Positions 1,282-8,599 of a stretch of 38,028 bases of DNA are shown here, piece after piece. The notes under the pieces are model-generated. The model was not told where the DNA came from. It saw only the letters and a list, made by a program, of their open reading frames with translations, and ran no database searches. This DNA is from Elusimicrobiota bacterium (GTDB taxonomy: Bacteria; Elusimicrobiota; Elusimicrobia; UBA1565; JACRDR01), in the NCBI GenBank assembly GCA_016207565.1, contig JACQPK010000402.1, positions 1 through 38,028 of the forward strand. The letters are read 5' to 3'. How positions within the stretch are numbered: the first letter of the stretch is position 1; the number at the start of each line of letters is the position of its first letter. The position numbers were made by a program, and so were the translations under genes.

Positions 1282-1821
1282 ATGATGACGCTATTTGCGC
1301 TCCTCGCGGGCGCCGCGCTCGCCGCCGACACCACCGCCGCCAAGCCCGCGCAGGAGATGACGGCCGTCTTCGAGCTGTCGGTCCATATCCTGAAGCAAGG
1401 AGACGTGCAGAAGGTCTACGAGAGCATCGTCCGGCGCCTGAGCGACGCCGGGGGCGTGCAGGCCCTCACGGGCCGCCCGGACATGATCGCGTTCTCCTTC
1501 GGGCGGGGCCGGGTCCCCGAGCTCCGCAAGCGTCTCGAGAAGGGCCTCGCCTCGGTCGCCTCGGTCGGCCTCATGCGAGGCAAGGCCGAGAAGCTCGCCC
1601 CGACGTTCGAGGAGCGGCGGGCGCAGGCCCAGAGCGAGATCAAGCTCCTGAACGCCGAGCGCGAGAAGATCTCGGAGGCGCTCGCCAAGGCCCCCCTGAT
1701 CGACGCCTACGTCAAAGAACAGCTCCGGCAGCTCGGTTCGATCGACCCAGCGAAGGAGGAGCGGCAAGGCATCCTGCTCGTGATCGTCGACGGCGCCGAC
1801 CCGCCGGGCCCGCTCAAGTAG
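1282..1821 (+). CDS. Exported hypothetical protein with a coiled-coil-like middle (weak DUF4349-like resemblance)
   Basis: Signal peptide [15 protein letters not shown], high GC3 codon usage and an upstream promoter. Confidence 0.7.
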
Positions 1822-1827
1822 CTCGCC

Positions 1828-1856
1828 TTGACAAAGGCCGGCGCCGCTGTTACCCT
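1828..1856 (+). promoter_or_regulatory. Sigma70-type promoter of the pilin gene
   Basis: TTGACA (1828-1833)-N17-TACCCT (1851-1856) with extended TG. ATG follows 10 nt later with no SD. Confidence 0.7.
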
Positions 1857-1866
1857 GACGGCGTCG

Positions 1867-2367
1867 ATGAAACGTCGTCCTACCGGTTTCACCCTAATCG
1901 AGCTGCTGGTCGTGTGCCTCATCATCGGGATCCTCGCGACGATGGGTCTCAGCCAGTACGCCAAGAGCGTCGAGACCGCCAAAGCCGACGACGCCTTCGC
2001 CTTCACGCAGAGCATCGCGGCCGCCAACCGCATGTACGCCCTCGACCATGGCGGCCGCTACCTCACGGGCACGCTGACCGTCGCCGACTGCCCGACGGGC
2101 GCCGCCGACGACTGCCGGACCAACACGAGCGCGTGCAGCCTGATGTGGTGCGGCTATCTCGCCCGGCAGGACCTCATGCCGAAGCCCTACACCTTCTGCG
2201 CCGGCGACGCCGCCACCGAGTGCGGGGCCGCTTGCGACGCGACGATGGTGGCTTGCTCCCTCCGCAAGTCGCCCGCCTCCACGCCCTACAGCACGTGGGG
2301 GTATACCGTCACCCGGCAGGGGGTCTCCACCGCCTCGGACCCCTCGAATATGCCGGCCGTTCAATAA
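1867..2367 (+). CDS. Type IV pilin (prepilin N-terminal cleavage/methylation domain) with Cys-rich head
   Basis: MKRRPTG|FTLIELLVVCLIIGILATMGLSQYAKSVETAK is a class III signal with Glu5. The globular part has 8 Cys. Confidence 0.92.
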   Translation: MKRRPTGFTLIELLVVCLIIGILATMGLSQYAKSVETAKADDAFAFTQSIAAANRMYALDHGGRYLTGTLTVADCPTGAADDCRTNTSACSLMWCGYLARQDLMPKPYTFCAGDAATECGAACDATMVACSLRKSPASTPYSTWGYTVTRQGVSTASDPSNMPAVQ

Positions 2368-2400
2368 GCTGTAACTTTTTCGCCTCCGCCGTCTATAGGT
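2368..2400 (+). promoter_or_regulatory. ECF-sigma-type promoter, copy 1 (upstream of the Hint protein gene)
   Basis: GCTGTAACTTTTT-N10-GTCTATAGGT, with a near-identical copy at 4205-4237. The -35 AAC and -10 GTC/GAC pattern is typical of ECF promoters. Confidence 0.75.
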
Positions 2401-2434
2401 TGGTGGAAGGCAGGCGCAGGAAGGAGAAAAGTCA

Positions 2435-3544
2435 ATGAAAATAAAGACATTGCTGAGCGCCATCGGGCTCATGTTCGGTCTTTATGGGGTCGCGGCCGCC
2501 CAACTGAGAGGCTCCGCGAGCATCACGGTGCAGGAGTCGAGCGCGCTGGGGCCCACGGGGTGCAACGTCTGCGGCAACGGGTGTTCCCCGGGCAACATGC
2601 GGTCGACGGGCGGCTGGGCCTATGTCTCGCCGTCTGCGTCGGCCGATCCGCGGTGGCCGATCACCGGCATCACCGTCCAGCAGCGCTTCGGCGGTTACGG
2701 CCGCTCCTACGCTTCCTGGGAGACCCAGAACGGCAACTACCAGCAGAGGGCGCTTCCCGACGGCGATGGCTCGCCTTGGCGCGCGGAGCTCTATCGCAAC
2801 ATCAGCAGCTCGTACTGGTGGGGGTATTACCAGTACCGGGCGGTCTGCACCAACGCGGGGGGCAACCTCATCAGCTCGGACGTCTGGGAGAACATCGTCT
2901 CCTGCTTCCTCAAGGGCACGCCGATCCTGATGGCGGACGGGACCTATAAGAAGATCGAGGAGATTCAGATCGGCGACCAGGTGCTCTCCTACGATACCGA
3001 GAATAAGAAGTTCATCCCCAGCGGCGTCGTCAACACCGTGCAGGCCGTCTCGGAGAAGTACTACGTCGTCAACGGCGAGCTGAAGATCACTCCGGCCCAC
3101 CAGCTCTACGTCAACGGCGGCTGGCTCAACTCCGAGTACATGAAGGTCGGCGACACGCTGCTCGGCGAGGATGGACAGCCCGTCACGATCACGTCGCTCG
3201 TGGAGGTCACCGAGACCGTGCCCGTGTACAACCTGATCACCCAAGCGCCGCACGACTTCTTCGCGTCGGGCTTCCTGGTGCACAACATCAACCCGGGCGC
3301 GGAGCACAAGGACCACGGGTTCGGCAAGGGCACGAAGATCGCGCTCGCGGACGGCCGGGTCGTGCCGATCGAAGAGGTCAAGGTCGGAGACAAAGTCGTC
3401 TCCTACGACACCCAGAAAGGGCGCTACACGATCTCCAAGGTCTTGGGCGCCGGCTCGCAGACGGCGAAGAAGACCAAGCTGATCAACGGCACGCTCCGGG
3501 TCGGGGCGAAACAGCCGATGTTCGGCATCGCGAAAGGAAAGTAA
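2435..3544 (+). CDS. Secreted protein: signal peptide, beta-rich N-domain, intact Hint (BIL/intein-like) domain and degenerate N-terminal half-Hint
   Basis: SD AAGGAG and a Sec signal. Hint1 spans aa157-284: CFLKGTPILMADG...TPAH...VYNL...FFASGFLVHN. A second copy at aa295-369 starts GFGKGTKIALADG and stops just after the block B region. Confidence 0.92.
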   Translation: MKIKTLLSAIGLMFGLYGVAAAQLRGSASITVQESSALGPTGCNVCGNGCSPGNMRSTGGWAYVSPSASADPRWPITGITVQQRFGGYGRSYASWETQNGNYQQRALPDGDGSPWRAELYRNISSSYWWGYYQYRAVCTNAGGNLISSDVWENIVSCFLKGTPILMADGTYKKIEEIQIGDQVLSYDTENKKFIPSGVVNTVQAVSEKYYVVNGELKITPAHQLYVNGGWLNSEYMKVGDTLLGEDGQPVTITSLVEVTETVPVYNLITQAPHDFFASGFLVHNINPGAEHKDHGFGKGTKIALADGRVVPIEEVKVGDKVVSYDTQKGRYTISKVLGAGSQTAKKTKLINGTLRVGAKQPMFGIAKGK

Positions 3545-3573
3545 CGTAGCCGAACGAGATCCTTCCGTGAAAC

Positions 3574-3605
3574 AGGGGCAGGTCCTCCCACGAGGACCTG
3601 CCCCT
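3574..3605. terminator. Perfect 14-bp stem-loop without U-tract between the Hint gene and the ECF sigma gene
   Basis: AGGGGCAGGTCCTC-ccac-GAGGACCTGCCCCT. Confidence 0.5.
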
Positions 3606-3614
3606 CGCGTCTCG

Positions 3615-4211
3615 ATGGAAGCGGGCCCCCGAGAGCACGACGAAGACGTCCGCCTGGTTCGCGCCGCCCAGAAGGGCGACGCCGACGCCTTCCGCCGGCT
3701 CATCGAGCGCCACCAAGACCCGGTCTTCGACCTTTGCCTGCGAATGCTCGGCAACCCGCAGGACGCCGAGGACGCCGCCCAAGACACCTTTCTCGCTTTT
3801 TTCCGGCACCTCCGGTCCTACCGGGAGGACCACAAGCTCTCCAACTGGCTCTACACGATCGCGCTCAACCGCTGCCGCCGGCTCTTGCGCAAGCGAAAGC
3901 TGCTCCGGCTGCTGTCGCTCGACTTCTCTTGGGGAGACGAGAACGAGCCCGCCGCGCTCGAAGCCCCGTCCGAGGAGAAGCTCCCGGAGGCCGGCCTCGA
4001 GCAGGCGGAGGCCGAGCGGTGGGCCGCGAAAGTCCTGGCGAGCCTGCCCCCCACCCTCCGCGAGCCGTTCCTTTTGCGCCACGTGAAGAAGATGCACTAC
4101 GAGGAGATCGCGGCCGCGATGAAACTGTCGCTCGCCAACGTCAAGGTCCGCCTCCACCGGGCGAAGCTCTTCCTGCTGAAGCGCTTCGGACCCGGCCCCT
4201 CCGGGCTGTAA
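3615..4211 (+). CDS. ECF-subfamily RNA polymerase sigma factor (alternative start GTG 3567)
   Basis: Region 2: GDADAFRRLIERHQ...DAEDAAQDTFL...LSNWLYTIALNRC. Region 4: LASLPPTLREPFLLRHVKKMHYEEIA...NVKVRLHRAK. Confidence 0.95.
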   Translation: MEAGPREHDEDVRLVRAAQKGDADAFRRLIERHQDPVFDLCLRMLGNPQDAEDAAQDTFLAFFRHLRSYREDHKLSNWLYTIALNRCRRLLRKRKLLRLLSLDFSWGDENEPAALEAPSEEKLPEAGLEQAEAERWAAKVLASLPPTLREPFLLRHVKKMHYEEIAAAMKLSLANVKVRLHRAKLFLLKRFGPGPSGL

Positions 4212-4237
4212 CTTTTTGGGGATTTCGGACTATAGGT
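4205..4237 (+). promoter_or_regulatory. ECF-sigma-type promoter, copy 2 (overlaps the sigma stop codon, upstream of the anti-sigma candidate)
   Basis: GCTGTAACTTTTT-N10-GACTATAGGT, with the same spacing as 2368-2400. Confidence 0.72.
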
Positions 4238-4253
4238 ATCTAGAAGCGACGCC

Positions 4254-4733
4254 ATGGACAGCGGAAAGATAAGTAAGAACAAGGATTTCTTGCTGGCGCT
4301 CGAGCGGTTGTTCGACGGCGCTCGGCCCCATCCCGCGCCGACGCATTTCGCGGACCGGGTCTTGGACCGATGGCGCGAGGAGCCGTCGTGGACGATGGCC
4401 ATGCCCGCGGCGGTCGTCATGGCCTGCGCCACGCTGGCGCTCTTCTTCGCCCTGGGCCGCGCACCGCAGGCGCAGCCGCAGATTCTCGCCTTCGGGTTCG
4501 ACCGGGAATCGATCCCACTCTACCAGCCGGTCACCCTGCGCTGGAAGGTGGCGCACGTCACGCGGGTCCAGATCAAGGTCACGGCGGACGGGGCCATCCT
4601 CAAGGATATGCCGGTGGCTCGGCCGGTGGAATCCGGCGAGCTGACCATGAGCATGAGCCTTCCCGGCCGCTACGGCTTCGAGCTCATCGCCCACACCCCG
4701 CACGGCGCCATCACCCACCGGTTAGGCCGTTAG
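4254..4733 (+). CDS. Putative single-pass anti-sigma factor with an extracytoplasmic Ig/PKD-like domain
   Basis: Lies directly after the ECF gene. It has a short N-domain with APTHFADRVL, a TM segment (MPAAVVMACATLALFFAL) and a beta-rich PQILAF...VTLRWKV...VQI...YGFELIA tail. Confidence 0.72.
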   Translation: MDSGKISKNKDFLLALERLFDGARPHPAPTHFADRVLDRWREEPSWTMAMPAAVVMACATLALFFALGRAPQAQPQILAFGFDRESIPLYQPVTLRWKVAHVTRVQIKVTADGAILKDMPVARPVESGELTMSMSLPGRYGFELIAHTPHGAITHRLGR

Positions 4734-4739
4734 GCGGCA

Positions 4740-4768
4740 TTGACACCCCGTCGGGGGGCTGTTATATT
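4740..4768 (+). promoter_or_regulatory. Sigma70-type promoter of the fibre/minor pilin operon
   Basis: TTGACA (4740-4745)-N17-TATATT (4763-4768) with extended TG. Confidence 0.75.
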
Positions 4769-4797
4769 TCAGATAGCGCTTGCGAGGGCCGTCCAAC

Positions 4798-5205
4798 ATG
4801 GTCACGCATGAGATCACCCTTTCGTTCACCGTCACCCCTTCCCGCGTCCGCCTGGTCCTGGCGGCGGCGCTTTTAGCCGTATTTCCCCAGGCCTCCTCCA
4901 CCCAGGACGTGTCGACCATGGAGCTGTACTACCCGCCCCCCATCACCGCGGTCGACCAGCTCTACGCCGCCGGCACGACCGTGTTGGCCCGGGATTTCGG
5001 CAACGTCTTTCTCGGGCCGGCCAACGCGGGAGGCACCCATCCGCCCGCCTTCGTCGCGATCGCCCCAGCGAACTCGAGCCCGGCTTTGGCCGCGAACCGC
5101 GACATAGGCATCTTGGTTAACGGCACGATGCGGGTCGACGGCTGCATCAGCCTCAAGAACGCCGGCGCGGGCAACGAGAATCTATGGCGGTGCAAATTCC
5201 GATGA
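4798..5205 (+). CDS. Exported fibre-like protein, paralogue 1
   Basis: EITLSF..PSR plus a hydrophobic segment, then YYPPP, TVLARDFGNV and ILVNGTMRVDGCI...WRC. ATGA overlap with the next gene. Confidence 0.75.
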   Translation: MVTHEITLSFTVTPSRVRLVLAAALLAVFPQASSTQDVSTMELYYPPPITAVDQLYAAGTTVLARDFGNVFLGPANAGGTHPPAFVAIAPANSSPALAANRDIGILVNGTMRVDGCISLKNAGAGNENLWRCKFR

Positions 5206-5675
5206 ACAAGAAGGTGCACGAGCTGACGCTCGAGCTGAGGCTCGCGCCCCGGCCTCGCTGGGCCGTCGTCGCGCTGGTGGCCCTGTGCTTGGCGCTGCCG
5301 CCCAACGCGGGAACGGGCGAGAACTGGGGCACGACCGGGCCGGACGGAGGCGCCAACTACCATCCCGTGCCCTCGGGAGTGGTCACCCAGCTTACGGTGA
5401 CCGGCAACTCCGCGCAGGCGGCGTGGCCGGGGAATCCCGTCACCGAGATCGGCTACCAGCCGACGGTCGTGCTGGGACGCGGCGGAACGGGAACGGACAG
5501 CCTGAACCCGCAGACCGTGGTCCTCAATCCCGGCGGCGCGTTCTTCACGGGCATCGGCTTCCCGGCCGCCGGGACGACCGTGCCCACGCAGCACCTCCAC
5601 GTGCGCGGCCACGTGAAAGTCGCCCAGTGCATCTGGATCGGCAGCTCGGCACGCTGCGCGGGCGACTGGCAGTAG
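5202..5675 (+). CDS. Exported fibre-like protein, paralogue 2
   Basis: ELTLELRLAPR plus a hydrophobic segment, then YHPVPSG, TVVLGR and GIGF...LHVRGHVKVAQCIWIGSSARCAGDW. Confidence 0.75.
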   Translation: MNKKVHELTLELRLAPRPRWAVVALVALCLALPPNAGTGENWGTTGPDGGANYHPVPSGVVTQLTVTGNSAQAAWPGNPVTEIGYQPTVVLGRGGTGTDSLNPQTVVLNPGGAFFTGIGFPAAGTTVPTQHLHVRGHVKVAQCIWIGSSARCAGDWQ

Positions 5676-5683
5676 GGGCCTCC

Positions 5684-6874
5684 ATGGAGCGCGAATTCCG
5701 CCTCCGCCTCCGCCTCCCCCGCTCGACCGCTCAGGCCACGCTCGTCGCCGCTCTCCTCGCCTGGCCGGGCTCGGTGCTTTGTCCGGTGCAGCAGACCGCC
5801 GTCATGGTCGGCTACCTCGCGGACGAGGCCCGCCCGGTGACGACGAACTTCCTGGCTTCGAACCAAAAGACCGTGCTCGGCGCGAGCGGCCACGTCATCA
5901 TGGTCCCGGGAGACTGCTACCCGGCCCGGAACACGACCGTTTACGGCTGCGGGGCGGCGCCGGGCAGCCCCAACCCGACCACCTGCGGCACCCGAGTCAC
6001 GGCCAGCCCGCTCAAAATGCCCGCCTCGGGCGGAGCCGACTACAACAATTCCGGCACGGGCAGCCCGAGCTGCTACAACCCCGCGTGCAACAGCGGCAGC
6101 ACCTGCACCGCCAACAGCGCGGTGCCGCTCCGGCGCGTCTACGCGGTGAACCGGGCGAAGCCGGTGTCTCAGGCCGACGTCGGCAGCCCGGACATCCTGC
6201 GCGTCGACGGCGACATCCGCGTCAACCGCCTCTGCTTCTGGGACGAATGCCGGACGGATTGGCCCTTCGAGTTCCAAGACTGCTCCGTCGGCGGCTGCAC
6301 CCCCGAAAACTCCGACTGCATGCCGGACGGGACGCCGCCGCCCGCGTGCCAGACGAGCGGTACGCGGGGACAGATCCGGACGGTCACCTACAACTGGTCG
6401 ATCCCCGGCTCGACCGCGGCCGCCGGGGTCGATAGCCCGTGGGTGTTCCGGTTCGGGATCGTGGGGAACAACGCCGGCGTGACCGGCGGCGACAGCTGCA
6501 CCGGCTCGCCGGTCGGCTGCGAGATCGGTTTTCCCCTCCCCCAGTCGAGCCCGCCGGCGGGCTACAGCTACCCGTCCGTGACCTCGGGCAGCCGACCCGA
6601 CTCGAAGGCCGCCGAGCCGTCGACGTGGCAGCTCAACACGACCATGACCGTCAACCAGGGCTCCGGGGCCGTGACGCTCACGATCCGCTGCCGCATCTGG
6701 TATCCGCCGTCGGAGTTCAGCCAGACGAAAGGCAAGTGCGAGATCATCATCCCGATCCAGACCGTCGCGCAGTCGGTGAACACCTACAACTTCTCGCCCA
6801 CGTCGTTCTGCCAGGAGCGCTACCTCACGAGCGACGAGCGCTACGCGGCCTGTCCGGTGGTGGTGGCCCCGTGA
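5684..6874 (+). CDS. Exported Cys-rich fibre/adhesin-like protein, paralogue 3, with a C-terminal beta-rich head
   Basis: EFRLRLRLPR plus a hydrophobic segment, then KTVLGASGHV and ILRVDGDIRVNRLCFWDECRTDWP. About 19 Cys. GTGA overlap with the next gene. Confidence 0.78.
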   Translation: MEREFRLRLRLPRSTAQATLVAALLAWPGSVLCPVQQTAVMVGYLADEARPVTTNFLASNQKTVLGASGHVIMVPGDCYPARNTTVYGCGAAPGSPNPTTCGTRVTASPLKMPASGGADYNNSGTGSPSCYNPACNSGSTCTANSAVPLRRVYAVNRAKPVSQADVGSPDILRVDGDIRVNRLCFWDECRTDWPFEFQDCSVGGCTPENSDCMPDGTPPPACQTSGTRGQIRTVTYNWSIPGSTAAAGVDSPWVFRFGIVGNNAGVTGGDSCTGSPVGCEIGFPLPQSSPPAGYSYPSVTSGSRPDSKAAEPSTWQLNTTMTVNQGSGAVTLTIRCRIWYPPSEFSQTKGKCEIIIPIQTVAQSVNTYNFSPTSFCQERYLTSDERYAACPVVVAP

Positions 6875-7374
6875 GCCGCCGGCGGCGACGGAACGGATTC
6901 ACGCTCATCGAGATCTGCGTTGCCGCGCTCTTGATCGCGATCGGCGCGACGGCGCTGTTCGCGGTCGCGCTGTCGACGCGGAGAACGGTCGCGGTAAGCC
7001 CGCTCCGCGAGCAGATGAACCAGTACGCGCGGCTGCTGTCGGAGAGCCTCAAGGGCTACGTCACGGCGTGCCTCCCGGGCGCCGTGTCCACCGCCTGCCC
7101 GGCGTCGATCACCGACGCCGCCCGCAACGCGGGCGCGCCGCACGGCACGTGGGCCCTCAGCAAGCCCGACGGGACGGACTGCGGGACCGACGGCTACAAC
7201 TGGGCCCTCGACGCGGCGGACGCCGACAATCCCCACGACGCCTCCTGCTTTCTTCCCGCCGAGCTGACGTCGGCGCCTCCGGACGGCGCCAACGCGACCC
7301 TCAAGTACACGGTGGCGGTCGCCGACGGCGCCCGGAAGTTCGAGATCATCATGGCGTGGGAGGAGCCGGACTGA
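6871..7374 (+). CDS. Minor pilin/pseudopilin, PilV/GspI-like
   Basis: GTG start coupled to the upstream stop. MSRRRRRNG|FTLIEICVAALLIAIG; C-terminal FEIIMAWEEP strand. Confidence 0.85.
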   Translation: MSRRRRRNGFTLIEICVAALLIAIGATALFAVALSTRRTVAVSPLREQMNQYARLLSESLKGYVTACLPGAVSTACPASITDAARNAGAPHGTWALSKPDGTDCGTDGYNWALDAADADNPHDASCFLPAELTSAPPDGANATLKYTVAVADGARKFEIIMAWEEPD

Positions 7375-8174
7375 TGGCCTCTCCGGCTCTCGCTTCCGAA
7401 GAGGGCTTCTCCATGATCGAGCTCATGGTGGTCGTCATGCTGATGGCGGTCATCATGCTCGGGCTCTTCTCGCTGCAGGACGCGCTGCTCCAGCAGCGAG
7501 GCCGCATCCTCCGCAACGTCGCCGTGCGCAACCAGAACGATCTCGCGCGGCGGACCATGCTGCGCGAGCTCGCCTCGGCGACGGTGGTCCTCGAGCCGCA
7601 GACCGGGATGGCGAGCGACAACATCGTCGGCTGGAAGAACCTCGATCCCTCCACGATCATCTGCTGCGGCGCCACGACCTACTCGTGCATCTCGTGCGTG
7701 CCGAGCGCGACGAACCTCCGGACGAACGCCCCGAACCCCGCGACGTGCACCTGCGGGAACCTGGGAACCGAGCCGGCCCGGGCGCTGTCGACCACGGGCG
7801 CGGGCGACGAGGCCCTGATCCAGTGGTTCCGGTTCTGCTTTGACGACACGGTCGCCGACGACGCCAACCGGACGCCGCGCATCGTCTATTACAGCGGCAC
7901 GGGATTCAATGCAGGGGGCGTCTTGCCGGCCGACGCGACCGAGATCTGCGGCGATGGCGACGCGGCCCAGCCGATCGGGGGGTTCGACGGAGTCTCGATC
8001 GCGAAGACCGGAGCAAGCCTCTTCAGCCGTCCGCGCCACAACTGGGTCGATATCAATTTTTCCGCGTTCGTCGAGCGGCCCGTTCCGTCCACGGGGCAGG
8101 TCGAGACGGCCAAGGCCGAGACGCATGTCGGAGTCACGCTGATGACCGGCAACATCGCGTCGGCGAGGTGGTGA
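7374..8174 (+). CDS. Minor pilin/pseudopilin, PilW/GspJ-like
   Basis: TGATG coupling. EEG|FSMIELMVVVMLMAVIMLG followed by a long helix ending MLRELASA. Confidence 0.85.
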   Translation: MASPALASEEGFSMIELMVVVMLMAVIMLGLFSLQDALLQQRGRILRNVAVRNQNDLARRTMLRELASATVVLEPQTGMASDNIVGWKNLDPSTIICCGATTYSCISCVPSATNLRTNAPNPATCTCGNLGTEPARALSTTGAGDEALIQWFRFCFDDTVADDANRTPRIVYYSGTGFNAGGVLPADATEICGDGDAAQPIGGFDGVSIAKTGASLFSRPRHNWVDINFSAFVERPVPSTGQVETAKAETHVGVTLMTGNIASARW

Positions 8175-8599
8175 TGCGAAGCGAGCGCGGCGTGGTCCTG
8201 GTGCACGTCATGATCCTCATCACGCTCATGGCGTGGCTCGCGTCCATGTTCCTCAGCTCCGTGCTTTCCCGTCAGATCAACGCCAAGCAAAGCATGAAGA
8301 GCTCCGAGGTCCGCGCCGCGATGAACGCGGCGGCGGCCCGGATCACGAGCTGCCTCGCGAGCGTGGGGTTTCCCGTGGGAACCACGTGCGCCAGCGCCCT
8401 GCCGGTCTCGCAGGAGGCCGCCTTCCAGGCCTGCCACGGCGGCACTTCGCCCACGGAGTTCACCATCGCCGACACCGACAGCCTCGCGGTGCGGCCCGTC
8501 ACCTTCGCCATCTGCGCCACGCCCGCGAACCCGCCCTGCCGGTTTCGCATCAACGTTTGCGAGCCGGGGGACACCTGCCCGGCGCCGACCTGCCCTTAA
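8174..8599 (+). CDS. Minor pilin/pseudopilin, PilX/GspK-like
   Basis: TGATG coupling. MRSERG|VVLVHVMILITLM lacks Glu5, the PilX/GspK hallmark. Cys-rich. Confidence 0.8.
   Translation: MRSERGVVLVHVMILITLMAWLASMFLSSVLSRQINAKQSMKSSEVRAAMNAAAARITSCLASVGFPVGTTCASALPVSQEAAFQACHGGTSPTEFTIADTDSLAVRPVTFAICATPANPPCRFRINVCEPGDTCPAPTCP

What the first reader, a model, noticed from the sequence alone, without database searches (positions are those of the whole stretch)
2435..3544. Secreted protein with an active Hint domain followed by a catalytically dead N-terminal half-Hint
Seen: Hint1 (2903-3286) keeps Cys1, block B TPAH, VYNL and terminal His-Asn, but the +1 residue is Ile rather than Cys/Ser/Thr. 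Ten residues later (3317-3541) a gap-free duplicate of only the first ~70 Hint residues follows, with about 24 of 69 positions identical by hand count. Structural positions (F.KGT.I..ADG, IEE, GD.V.SYDT, NG.L) are kept while the catalytic positions are replaced: C1->G, T->G, H->Q. Established: type A BIL-like Hint domains ending in HN without a +1 nucleophile mainly auto-cleave, and split inteins assemble from N- and C-halves. Inference: the dead half is a built-in decoy that can capture the C-terminal VYNL...HN strands of Hint1, acting as a natural caged-intein switch or a domain-swapping oligomeriser. It would gate release or thioester-linked attachment of the ~130-aa Cys-containing, Ig/Fn3-like N-domain (CNVCGNGC...YQYRAVCTNAGG).
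Basis: partly seen in the sequence, partly recalled or inferred. Interest (0 to 1): 0.9.

Follow-up and report, generated by a model that had tools for sequence, protein, structure and literature searches.

The report
Secreted self-cleaving protein with dead half-Hint
This gene encodes an exported protein with one complete self-cleaving Hint (intein-like) domain followed by a conserved, catalytically dead copy of only the first half of such a domain, an arrangement shared by a small family of groundwater-bacterium proteins whose function is still unknown.

Summary
ORF 2435-3544 (+) encodes 369 aa: a signal peptide, a variable all-beta N-domain and a complete BIL/intein-type Hint (Cys157, T219xxH222, His283-Asn284, +1 Ile). 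A 10-aa linker, a gap-free copy of the first ~70 Hint residues and a Lys-rich end follow. The copy is 24/68 identical to Hint1 (BLASTP E 1e-15) and has Gly at position 1.

The half is not a recent truncation:
- 28 of 181 collected relatives share the architecture, as do 7 intact paralogues in this genome.
- The halves form one clade (22/22, support 0.975).
- They are as conserved as Hint1 (42% vs 44% pairwise identity; omega 0.24 vs 0.26 in the closest pair).
- Gly replaces Cys1 in 30/30. The block-B His is kept in 22/30, so H->Q is special to this subclade.

The region after the Hint is always basic (30/30, mean pI 10.2); Hint1 is acidic.

Best reading: an A-type-BIL-like autoprocessing protein whose half-Hint is a conserved, non-catalytic, basic C-extein module. 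The decoy/caged-intein idea got no support from any test I could run, but it is not excluded. This copy lies in a cluster conserved in 5 genomes with an ECF sigma/anti-sigma pair and minor pilins.

Verdict: new variant of a known kind.

The parts
2435..2500 (+). Predicted Sec signal peptide (aa 1-22, Ala-Ala-Ala then Gln)
   Evidence: Read by eye from the translation. All 9 aligned homologues start with a basic then hydrophobic stretch. No signal-peptide predictor was run.
2501..2902 (+). Variable all-beta N-domain (aa 23-156), Cys-containing; the N-extein or cargo
   Evidence: No Pfam family and no usable Atlas hit. AlphaFold2 gives strands 42-154, pLDDT blocks 56-89. It is the least conserved part: 25% mean pairwise identity in 30 members.
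2903..3286 (+). Complete Hint domain (aa 157-284): Cys157, T219-P-A-H222, V-Y-N-L block F, His283-Asn284
   Evidence: Pfam hits above cut-off. Foldseek top hits are BIL2 6y75 (E 9.3e-11, TMt 0.79) and BIL 2lwy (TMt 0.86). In 30 members Cys1, block-B T/S, block-B His and the terminal His-Asn are each 30/30.
3287..3316 (+). 10-aa linker starting with +1 Ile285; His-rich (E-H-K-D-H)
   Evidence: The +1 residue is a non-nucleophile in 29 of 30 members. His291 is kept in 17 of 30. A Lys lies within 11 residues of His-Asn in 27 of 30.
3317..3526 (+). Half-Hint (aa 295-364): homologue of Hint blocks A to B only; Gly at position 1, Gly/Ala for block-B Thr, Gln (His in most relatives) for block-B His
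   Evidence: BLASTP E 1e-15 to Hint1. Profile hits to BIL N-halves. pLDDT 84-96. 42% mean pairwise identity, Gly295 in 30/30. One clade, 22/22, support 0.975. Omega 0.24.
3527..3544 (+). Short Lys-containing C-terminal tail (I-A-K-G-K) and TAA stop
   Evidence: Tails of 1-27 aa in the 28 strict family members, nearly all Lys-rich. Mean tail charge +3.4 over the 30 members analysed. Only 22 nt separate the stop from the next ORF.
1828..2367 (+). Upstream prepilin-type (pseudo)pilin gene
   Evidence: Pfam N_methyl 1.5e-7. NCBIfam prepilin-type N-terminal domain is above its cut-off; GspG/PilA-like N-terminal matches are below theirs.
3567..4211 (+). ECF-type sigma factor immediately downstream
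   Evidence: Pfam Sigma70_r2 1.5e-19 and Sigma70_r4_2 9.6e-14. Same position in 5 of 5 loci of this orthologue group.
4254..4733 (+). Putative membrane anti-sigma factor (one hydrophobic span, read by eye)
   Evidence: No Pfam or NCBIfam family. Conserved after the sigma gene in 5 of 5 loci. The role is inferred from position only.
4780..5675 (+). Two small conserved ORFs (4780-5205, 5184-5675) of unknown function
   Evidence: Homologues lie in the same order in the window, L009, L010, L011 and L013. No family hit.
6439..8599 (+). Minor-pilin-like genes (ORFs 6439-7374, 7068-8174, 8168-8599; true starts probably near 6880 and 7398)
   Evidence: N_methyl motifs at aa 148-174 and 111-134 of the long ORFs. 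PilV/GspH/GspJ-like N-termini. Conserved in the 5 loci.

Best explanation
The gene encodes an exported autoprocessing protein of the bacterial intein-like (A-type BIL / PT-HINT-like) kind.

Proposed sequence of events. After Sec export, the complete Hint domain makes a thioester at Ser156-Cys157 (N-S acyl shift, helped by Thr219 and His222). It then cuts its own C-terminus by cyclisation of Asn284, helped by His283. No +1 nucleophile is present, so the main outcome is cleavage into three pieces: the variable N-domain, the acidic Hint, and the basic 85-aa C-extein.

The half-Hint. The C-extein is a once-evolved, non-catalytic descendant of the first half of a Hint domain (blocks A to B). It has been kept as a small, independently folding beta module with a Lys-rich tail. 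I take it to be a binding or anchoring module for an anionic partner or surface. It would hold the precursor, or a ligated product, in place. I do not take it to be a competitor for the strands of Hint1.

Shown: the domain make-up, the catalytic residues, the conservation, the single origin, the charge pattern and the gene neighbourhood.

Inferred: that cleavage happens, that the half folds alone, and what it binds.
For: Hint1 identity and catalytic set:
- Pfam hits above cut-off.
- Foldseek top hits are BIL2 6y75 (E 9.3e-11) and BIL 2lwy (TMt 0.86), ahead of inteins and Hedgehog Hh-C.
- In 30 members Cys1, block-B T/S, block-B His and the terminal His-Asn are each 30/30. The +1 residue is a nucleophile in only 1 of 30.
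- Passages in PMC7664689 and PMC7765530 say BIL domains without a +1 nucleophile mainly give cleaved products, and that A-type BILs end in His-Asn and sit in variable regions of non-conserved proteins.

The half is a kept module:
- Same end point and a 10-11 aa linker in 28 of 181 collected proteins.
- The same in 7 intact paralogues of this genome and in 9 loci of 5 MAGs titled Elusimicrobia.
- Copy number is 1-5 in those genomes.
- Conservation equals that of Hint1 (0.424 vs 0.443), against 0.248 for the N-domain.
- Omega is 0.24 for the half and 0.26 for Hint1 in the closest pair.
- The halves are one clade, 22 of 22, support 0.975.

The half is non-catalytic: Gly at position 1 in 30/30 and Gly/Ala for the block-B Thr in 30/30. 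By contrast, all 195 complete Hints in 79 tandem-Hint relatives keep Cys1, and 190 keep His-Asn.

It sits in the C-extein slot. The closest single-Hint relatives stop there or carry other C-terminal modules.

Charge. The C-region is net positive in 30/30 (mean +9.9, pI 10.2). Hint1 is net negative in 26/30 (pI 5.2). Lys makes up 14.4% of the C-region, 6.7% of Hint1 and 2.1% of the N-domain.

Model. The half has pLDDT 84-96 in the full model and 76-89 in the two-module model, where the linker reaches only 61 and pTM is 0.60.
Against: - No cleavage or binding was measured, and the partner of the basic module is unknown.
- Block-A (G-x-x-x-G-T) and block-B (His in 22/30) motifs are conserved in the half. 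In a whole Hint these strands pair with blocks F and G. Their retention is not explained by a free-standing binding module and hints at some strand pairing.
- Whether half a Hint fold is stable alone is untested. The models give no coordinates or PAE, so packing against Hint1 cannot be read.
- In the complex job the isolated half had pLDDT under 50 in at least one run. This bears on its fold only, not on binding.
- The invariant His-Asn together with the Lys-rich C-extein would also fit a ligation chemistry (see rivals).
Confidence: 0.55

Rival explanations
1. Ligation rather than plain cleavage. The thioester at Cys157 is resolved by an amine of the C-extein. This could be the new alpha-amine after Asn284 cyclisation, or a Lys side chain. 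Either way the variable N-domain ends up covalently joined to the basic half-Hint module. The half-Hint would be the acceptor or positioning scaffold, playing the part that ubl5 plays for Tetrahymena BIL2.
For: - The best structural and profile matches are BIL2 of the Tetrahymena BUBL1 locus and C. thermocellum BIL.
- PMC8616854 section 2.4 (passages read) states that BIL2 forms an isopeptide bond between a Lys epsilon-amine and the N-extein C-terminus.
- The C-region is 14.4% Lys, and a Lys lies within 11 residues of His-Asn in 27/30 members.
- The +1 residue is Lys in 139 of 195 Hints of tandem relatives.
- His-Asn is invariant.
Against: - No Lys is invariant in the C-region. The best-kept basic site, 316, is Lys in 26 and Arg in 4 members, and it is shared with ordinary Hint N-halves.
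- The +1 residue is Lys in only 5 of 30 family members.
- The reviews read say A-type BILs mostly cleave.
Confidence: 0.2
2. The dead half-Hint competes with, or exchanges strands with, the N-half of Hint1, in the same or another molecule. It would act as a natural caged-intein switch or a domain-swapping oligomeriser that gates processing.
For: - The half keeps the block-A and block-B strand motifs that normally pair with blocks F and G.
- It is as conserved as Hint1.
- The HINT fold consists of two pseudo-C2 subdomains thought to come from duplication and loop swapping (PMC7664689, passages read).
Against: - Hint1 is complete and lies upstream, so it can fold first during export (inference).
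- AlphaFold2 models Hint1 as a normal closed Hint and the half as a separate strand set. The linker is of low confidence and pTM is 0.60.
- A protein's half is not more like its own Hint1 N-half than like others' (0.304 vs 0.296; own larger in 19 of 29; p 0.08).
- The halves form a separate clade with no sign of gene conversion from Hint1.
Confidence: 0.1
3. Polymorphic-toxin-like logic. The Hint releases the basic C-terminal 85 aa as a cationic effector.
For: - The PT-HINT profile matches above its cut-off.
- PMC3482391 (passages read) places HINT autopeptidases just before C-terminal toxin domains, where they release them.
- The C-region is strongly cationic in 30/30 members.
Against: - Here the C-region is the conserved part and the N-domain the variable one (0.424 vs 0.248). 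That is the reverse of polymorphic toxins.
- No immunity-like gene follows. The next gene is an ECF sigma factor in 5 of 5 loci.
- The module is homologous to a Hint half, not to any toxin family.
Confidence: 0.08
4. The half-Hint is a functionless decaying remnant of a second Hint.
For: Full tandem Hints are common in more distant relatives: FULL-FULL in 52 and three in a row in 23 of 181 proteins.
Against: - The same boundaries are kept across 30-64% identical members.
- Six residues of the half are invariant in 30 of 30 members (G295, G307, G318, V336, N351; the same residues).
- Conservation and omega are like those of Hint1.
- A single old origin.
Confidence: 0.04

Closest known systems
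A-type bacterial intein-like (BIL) domains (e.g. Clostridium thermocellum BIL, PDB 2lwy)
   Same: - Hint fold: Foldseek E 4.8e-9, TMt 0.86, 28% identity.
- Cys1, block-B His and C-terminal His-Asn, with no +1 nucleophile.
- Found in variable, exported, non-conserved bacterial proteins.
- Often tandem in relatives.
   Different: Here the domain is followed by a conserved, truncated, Cys-less copy of its own N-half. My paper searches found no description of such a half-domain. A-type-specific sequence motifs were not tested, because no type-specific profile was on hand.
BIL2 of the Tetrahymena thermophila BUBL1 locus (PDB 6y75/6tmm)
   Same: It is the best structural hit for Hint1 (E 9.3e-11, 28% identity). 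It is also a profile hit for the half-Hint (E 1.4e-5, chain residues 7-83). Like this protein, it is a BIL flanked by small domains.
   Different: BIL2 is eukaryotic and intracellular. It is flanked by ubiquitin-like domains and is reported to make Lys isopeptide conjugates (PMC8616854, passages read). Here the flanks are a secreted beta domain and a half-Hint, and no chemistry has been shown.
Hedgehog C-terminal autoprocessing region (Hint + sterol-recognition region; PDB 1at0)
   Same: - The order of parts: exported cargo, then Hint, then a roughly 70-aa non-catalytic C-terminal region.
- A Cys1 thioester is expected.
- A structural hit, E 3.9e-5.
   Different: By my recollection, Hog Hints lack the terminal His-Asn and do not cut their C-terminus; this is not from a call. 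The sterol-recognition region is unrelated to a Hint half. Here His-Asn is invariant.
PT-HINT domains of polymorphic toxins
   Same: The Pfam PT-HINT model matches at 8.4e-15, nearly full length. The Hint sits just before a C-terminal module.
   Different: The C-terminal module is conserved and Hint-derived rather than a variable toxin. No immunity gene was seen.
Split-intein N-fragments and engineered caged split inteins
   Same: A free-standing N-half of a Hint fold.
   Different: - Position 1 is Gly in 30/30.
- No matching C-half gene exists in the 77%-complete genome.
- The half is fused after a complete Hint.
- The caged-intein comparison is recalled and comes from no call.

Membership tests
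HINT superfamily (Hint1, aa 157-284) | Sequence match to Hint-family profiles above curated cut-offs | tested here: met
   Hom_end_hint 73.1 bits (cut-off 32.1), PT-HINT 55.7 (27.7), Hint 42.4 (29.7), Vint 38.9 (27), Hint_2 35.3 (28.4).
HINT superfamily (Hint1, aa 157-284) | Horseshoe Hint fold | tested here: met
   The AlphaFold2 model has pLDDT 86-97 over the domain. 52 PDB hits at E <= 0.001 are led by BIL domains and inteins, with TMt 0.75-0.86.
HINT superfamily (Hint1, aa 157-284) | Catalytic residues: Cys/Ser at position 1 and block-B Thr-x-x-His | tested here: met
   Cys 30/30, Thr/Ser 30/30 and His 30/30 in the family.
A-type BIL domain | C-terminal His-Asn without a +1 Cys/Ser/Thr | tested here: met
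   His-Asn in 30/30. The +1 residue is Ile here, and Thr in only 1 of 30 members. The definition comes from passages in PMC7765530 and PMC7664689.
A-type BIL domain | Located in variable regions of non-conserved, often secreted bacterial proteins, not at conserved sites of essential proteins | tested here: met
   The flanking N-domain is the least conserved part (0.248) and has no family. An N-terminal signal-like sequence is present.
A-type BIL domain | A-type-specific sequence motifs as defined by Amitai et al. 2003 | not tested
   No type-specific profile was available and that paper is not in the searched library. Closeness to the C. thermocellum BIL 2lwy is indirect.
A-type BIL domain | Autocatalytic N- and C-terminal cleavage | not testable with these tools
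   Needs expression of the precursor and its mutants.
True intein | +1 Cys/Ser/Thr, and insertion in a conserved host protein whose exteins are rejoined | tested here: not met
   +1 is Ile, and a nucleophile in only 1/30. The exteins are a variable secreted domain and a Hint remnant. No endonuclease domain is present.
Polymorphic toxin with PT-HINT | A variable C-terminal toxin domain after the Hint, plus an adjacent immunity gene | tested here: not met
   The C-region is conserved (0.424) and Hint-derived. The downstream gene is an ECF sigma factor in 5 of 5 loci.
Hedgehog/Hog autoprocessing region | A Hint without terminal His-Asn, followed by a sterol/adduct-recognition region | tested here: not met
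   His-Asn is invariant and the C-region is a beta-strand Hint half. The Hog definition is partly from PMC7765530 passages and partly recalled.
Split-intein N-fragment (the half-Hint, aa 295-364) | Nucleophile at position 1 and a separately encoded C-fragment | tested here: not met
   Gly at position 1 in 30/30. A six-frame HMM scan of 57,309 ORF segments of the genome found no orphan C-half. The genome is 77.5% complete.
HINT superfamily (the half-Hint, aa 295-364) | Homology to Hint blocks A to B | tested here: met
   BLASTP E 1e-15 to Hint1. Profile hits to 2lwy residues 3-57 and 6y75 residues 7-83. Single-sequence Pfam hits are below the cut-offs, in 4-7 of 15 members per Hint family.

The most novel reading that the evidence does not exclude
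The half-Hint is not a passive tag but a working partner of the active Hint. One option is that it presents an amine, so that the thioester-activated N-domain is transferred onto it or onto a target it binds. That would be a bacterial, extracytoplasmic counterpart of Hedgehog's adduct-recognition region or of BUBL-type enzyme-free conjugation, possibly onto the pilus-like proteins encoded next to this copy. The other option is that it exchanges strands with Hint1 to gate processing. Either way it would be the first natural case of half a HINT fold kept as a functional unit.
Probability: 0.15. Interest if true: 0.8.

Novelty: new variant of a known kind. Interest (0 to 1): 0.5.

Why it matters
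Hint domains are understood as indivisible two-lobed units whose halves arose by an ancient duplication. A natural family that has kept only one lobe would address that. The lobe is catalytically dead but as conserved as the active domain beside it. It would show whether half a HINT fold can stand or pair on its own. It might also reveal a new way of controlling or directing thioester chemistry outside the cell. The family is small, expanded to 7 copies in this genome, and easy to test in vitro. If the half only serves as a basic tag, the finding is a modest addition to the catalogue of BIL architectures.

Tried and rejected
- Complex prediction, two copies of residues 285-369 with a 15-row alignment: no verdict (score 0.00, mark 0.42). 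It is reported here only and is not used for or against dimerisation.
- The look-up of sequencing runs: no RNA holder listed. Five DNA runs hold the stretch or part of it, one of which may be the source.
- The protein-atlas search on the N-domain: no usable hit. On the C-region the hits were Hint-related or unnamed clusters at 0.88-0.91. These are leads only, and none was followed up.
- The search for homologous proteins with the 85-aa C-region among proteins of 46-149 aa: 7 candidates, none scoring. No free-standing copy was found at that tool's word-limited sensitivity.
- Orphan C-half search in the genome: none found.
- Own-versus-other identity test for matching between the half and Hint1: no clear signal.
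- Origin of the half (internal duplication or truncation of a tandem partner): unresolved. Its sister group has support of only 0.618.
- dN/dS for pairs below about 70% identity is unreliable, because NG86 dS of 0.46-1.1 is probably saturated.
- Paper searches found nothing on a conserved half-Hint or on Hint domains in Elusimicrobia: searches returned only general Hint papers and one search returned 0 papers. The library lacks most subscription journals, including the original BIL papers.
- The models return no coordinates or PAE. I therefore could not check contacts between the half and Hint1, nor search the fold of the half alone.
- I considered and rejected the 451-aa antisense ORF 2432..3787 as the real gene. 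The + frame carries the Pfam hits and the homologues.
Full report
THE OBSERVATION

Window 2435..3544 (+) is an ATG-started ORF of 369 aa. Pfam places Hint-family models on residues about 154-284. Hom_end_hint scores 4.2e-20 and PT-HINT 8.4e-15 over nearly its whole profile. Hint, Vint and Hint_2 are also above their cut-offs.

BLASTP of 157-284 against 285-369 gives 24/68 identities without a gap, E 1e-15. On its own, the last 85 aa hit Hint models only below the curated cut-offs (best 1.4e-5). A profile of 15 such tails matches the N-terminal residues 3-57 of the C. thermocellum BIL domain (E 7.6e-7). It also matches residues 7-83 of Tetrahymena BIL2 (E 1.4e-5), running through the block-B strand. 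So the repeat is real, it is homologous to the first half of a Hint, and it stops right after block B. The stop codon is followed 22 nt later by the next gene, so no hidden second half lies downstream.

A FAMILY, NOT AN ACCIDENT

The word-indexed search gave 8 close homologues of 342-369 aa with the same layout. The exhaustive representative search gave 13,206 hits at E <= 1e-3, nearly all through the Hint.

The architectures were:
- two full Hints: 52 proteins
- full Hint plus N-half: 31
- one full Hint: 27
- three full Hints: 23
- four full Hints: 9
- the rest mixed

Twenty-eight proteins meet a strict definition. The half scores higher with the half model than with the Hint model. It follows a full Hint and ends at most 30 aa before the stop. 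In these the linker is 10-11 aa and the tail is short and nearly always Lys-rich.

The window's own genome is 4.95 Mb in 519 contigs and 77.5% complete. It holds 7 intact copies, plus one at a contig start that changes frame.

In the species-representative genome collection, 9 of the 80 loci kept have this layout. All 9 lie in 5 MAGs titled Elusimicrobia, and one of them is split by a frame change. Those genomes carry 1, 5, 1 (plus the split one), 1 and 2 copies. That scan used two peptide patterns taken from close relatives, so it favours near kin. Sources name two metagenomic members Chloroflexota and NC10.

In 200 other genomes sampled from the window's phylum, 5 had Hint matches. None of these extended into the half. 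The family is therefore rare and patchy.

CONSTRAINT AND ORIGIN

I compared 30 non-redundant members. Duplicates and the fragment P0067 were dropped.
- Mean pairwise identity: N-domain 0.248, Hint1 N-half 0.443, Hint1 C-half 0.483, linker 0.278, half-Hint 0.424.
- Hint1 keeps Cys1, block-B Thr/Ser, block-B His and His-Asn in 30/30. The +1 residue is a nucleophile in 1/30.
- The half has Gly at position 1 in 30/30 and Gly/Ala for the Thr in 30/30.
- At the block-B His position the half has His in 22, Gln in 6, Asn in 1 and Thr in 1.

For the closest pair, two adjacent paralogues on contig C482, NG86 omega is 0.26 for Hint1 and 0.24 for the half. More distant pairs are probably saturated.

I built a FastTree of 126 N-half sequences: 22 halves, 22 family Hint1 N-halves and 82 from other proteins. 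Left out were near-duplicates, fragments, P0076, and proteins with more than three full Hints or weak domains. The tree puts all 22 halves in one clade (support 0.975), apart from the Hint1 clade (22 plus 4 others, 0.884). The sister of the halves is unresolved (0.618).

So the half arose once, early, and has been kept. Whether it came from an internal duplication or from cutting a tandem partner cannot be told.

Against this, every one of 195 complete Hints in 79 tandem-Hint relatives keeps Cys1, and 190 keep His-Asn. Their +1 residue is Lys in 139. The gap between successive Hints is at most 5 aa in 74 of 116 cases. A dead, halved copy is thus a departure from the habit of this clade.

STRUCTURE

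With 30 sequences, AlphaFold2 gives mean pLDDT 81.9 and pTM 0.59 for the whole protein. Hint1 scores 86-97, the half 84-96 and the all-beta N-domain 56-89. Foldseek ranks Tetrahymena BIL2 first (E 9.3e-11, 28% identity), then C. thermocellum BIL (TMt 0.86), then inteins and Hedgehog Hh-C.

A second model of residues 157-369 (15 sequences) has pLDDT 84.7 and pTM 0.60. The linker block scores 61 and the half has six strands. No coordinates or PAE are returned. I infer, but cannot show, that the position of the half relative to Hint1 is not fixed with confidence.

CHARGE

The region after His-Asn is net positive in 30 of 30 members (mean +9.9, pI 10.2). Hint1 is net negative in 26 of 30 (mean -5.8, pI 5.2). 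Lys makes up 14.4% of the C-region, 6.7% of Hint1 and 2.1% of the N-domain. No Lys is invariant; the best-kept basic site, 316, is Lys in 26 and Arg in 4.

SURROUNDINGS

Upstream lies a prepilin-type pilin gene (1828-2367). Downstream lie, in order:
- an ECF sigma factor (3567-4211)
- a likely membrane anti-sigma protein (4254-4733)
- two small ORFs
- three minor-pilin-like genes

The run of Hint gene, sigma, anti-sigma, small ORFs and pilin-like genes recurs in 5 of 5 loci of this orthologue group: the window, L009, L010, L011 and L013. In L010 the pilin genes are on the other side.

A strict prepilin motif occurs in 18 ORF segments genome-wide, about 0.05 per 13 kb. It occurs twice near each of these 5 loci and not at all near the other 11 family loci. 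The link to pilins and the sigma pair therefore belongs to this orthologue, not to the family. Three other paralogues sit next to a repeated roughly 460-aa protein without any Pfam family.

HOW IT MOST LIKELY WORKS

Reviews read in passages state that BIL domains lack the +1 nucleophile and mainly yield cleaved products. They also state that A-type BILs end in His-Asn and lie in variable regions of non-conserved proteins (PMC7664689, PMC7765530).

With all catalytic positions invariant, I expect Hint1 to form the Cys157 thioester and to cut at Asn284 after export. This would free the variable N-domain and the basic C-region. The half-Hint occupies the C-extein slot. The closest single-Hint relatives either stop there or carry unrelated modules.

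I read the half as a conserved, non-catalytic, basic binding or anchoring module (confidence 0.55).

The main rival (0.2) is ligation. The closest solved relative, BIL2, joins its N-extein to a Lys of the following domain (PMC8616854, section 2.4 passages). The Lys-rich C-region and the invariant His-Asn would fit that. However, no single Lys is conserved.

It keeps one argument: block-A and block-B strand motifs are conserved in a domain without their partner strands. That observation is unexplained by my preferred reading as well.

A toxin-release reading (0.08) and a functionless remnant (0.04) fit the conservation pattern poorly.

COMPARISON AND NOVELTY

Hint1 passes the tests for the HINT superfamily and for the A-type BIL features that I could test. 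It fails those for true inteins, for PT-HINT toxin architecture and for Hog domains. The half fails the tests for a split-intein fragment.

My paper searches found no description of a conserved half-Hint. The library lacks the original BIL papers, so this is not proof of absence. I rate the finding a new variant of a known kind, of moderate interest. It is real, conserved and cheap to test, but its function is open.

Noticed in passing
Proteins P0034-P0181 (tandem-Hint relatives): In 79 proteins with two or more complete Hints, the residue right after His-Asn is Lys in 139 of 195 domains. The domains abut closely: the gap is at most 5 aa in 74 of 116 cases. This strong +1 Lys preference may point to lysine-based chemistry in this BIL clade.
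   Followed up: partly
P0011, P0014, P0152, P0159, P0164, P0174: Several close single-Hint relatives carry a different 68-120-aa C-terminal module. In most it ends in Arg-Asn at or near the very C-terminus (for example L-R-N). It is an unrecognised C-extein family.
   Followed up: no
L073 (ORFs 1447-6189 and 6128-7249) and L087 (2548-6192 and 6183-7430), archaeal MAG loci: One ORF ends 5-6 aa after an N-half Hint, and the next, overlapping ORF begins with a C-half Hint. This could be a naturally split Hint or intein, or a frame error in the assembly.
   Followed up: no
window 3567-8599 and loci L009, L010, L011, L013: A conserved cluster of an ECF sigma factor, a putative anti-sigma protein, two small unknown ORFs and three minor-pilin-like genes always lies next to this orthologue of the Hint gene.
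   Followed up: partly
G000 contigs C368 (13357-14724, 15343-16755, 17733-19184, 21161-22705, 22369-23748) and C480 (705-2165, 1631-3400): A repeated family of 455-589-aa proteins lies next to three other paralogues of the Hint/half-Hint gene. The one member scanned (L007, 459 aa) has no Pfam match.
   Followed up: partly
G000 C480:1-701 (L008) and L011:2143-3591: Two family copies change reading frame between the Hint and the half-Hint. One is at a contig start. They could be pseudogenes or assembly errors.
   Followed up: no
P0050, P0062, P0124, P0146, P0169 and own paralogues on C368: Some members have runs of Pro followed by runs of Asp (up to about 10 each) immediately before Cys1. This is a flexible acidic spacer at the N-terminal cleavage site.
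   Followed up: no
P0022: A 416-aa relative combines a prepilin N-terminal methylation motif (PF07963) with a Hint domain, so it is a pilin-like protein with its own Hint.
   Followed up: no
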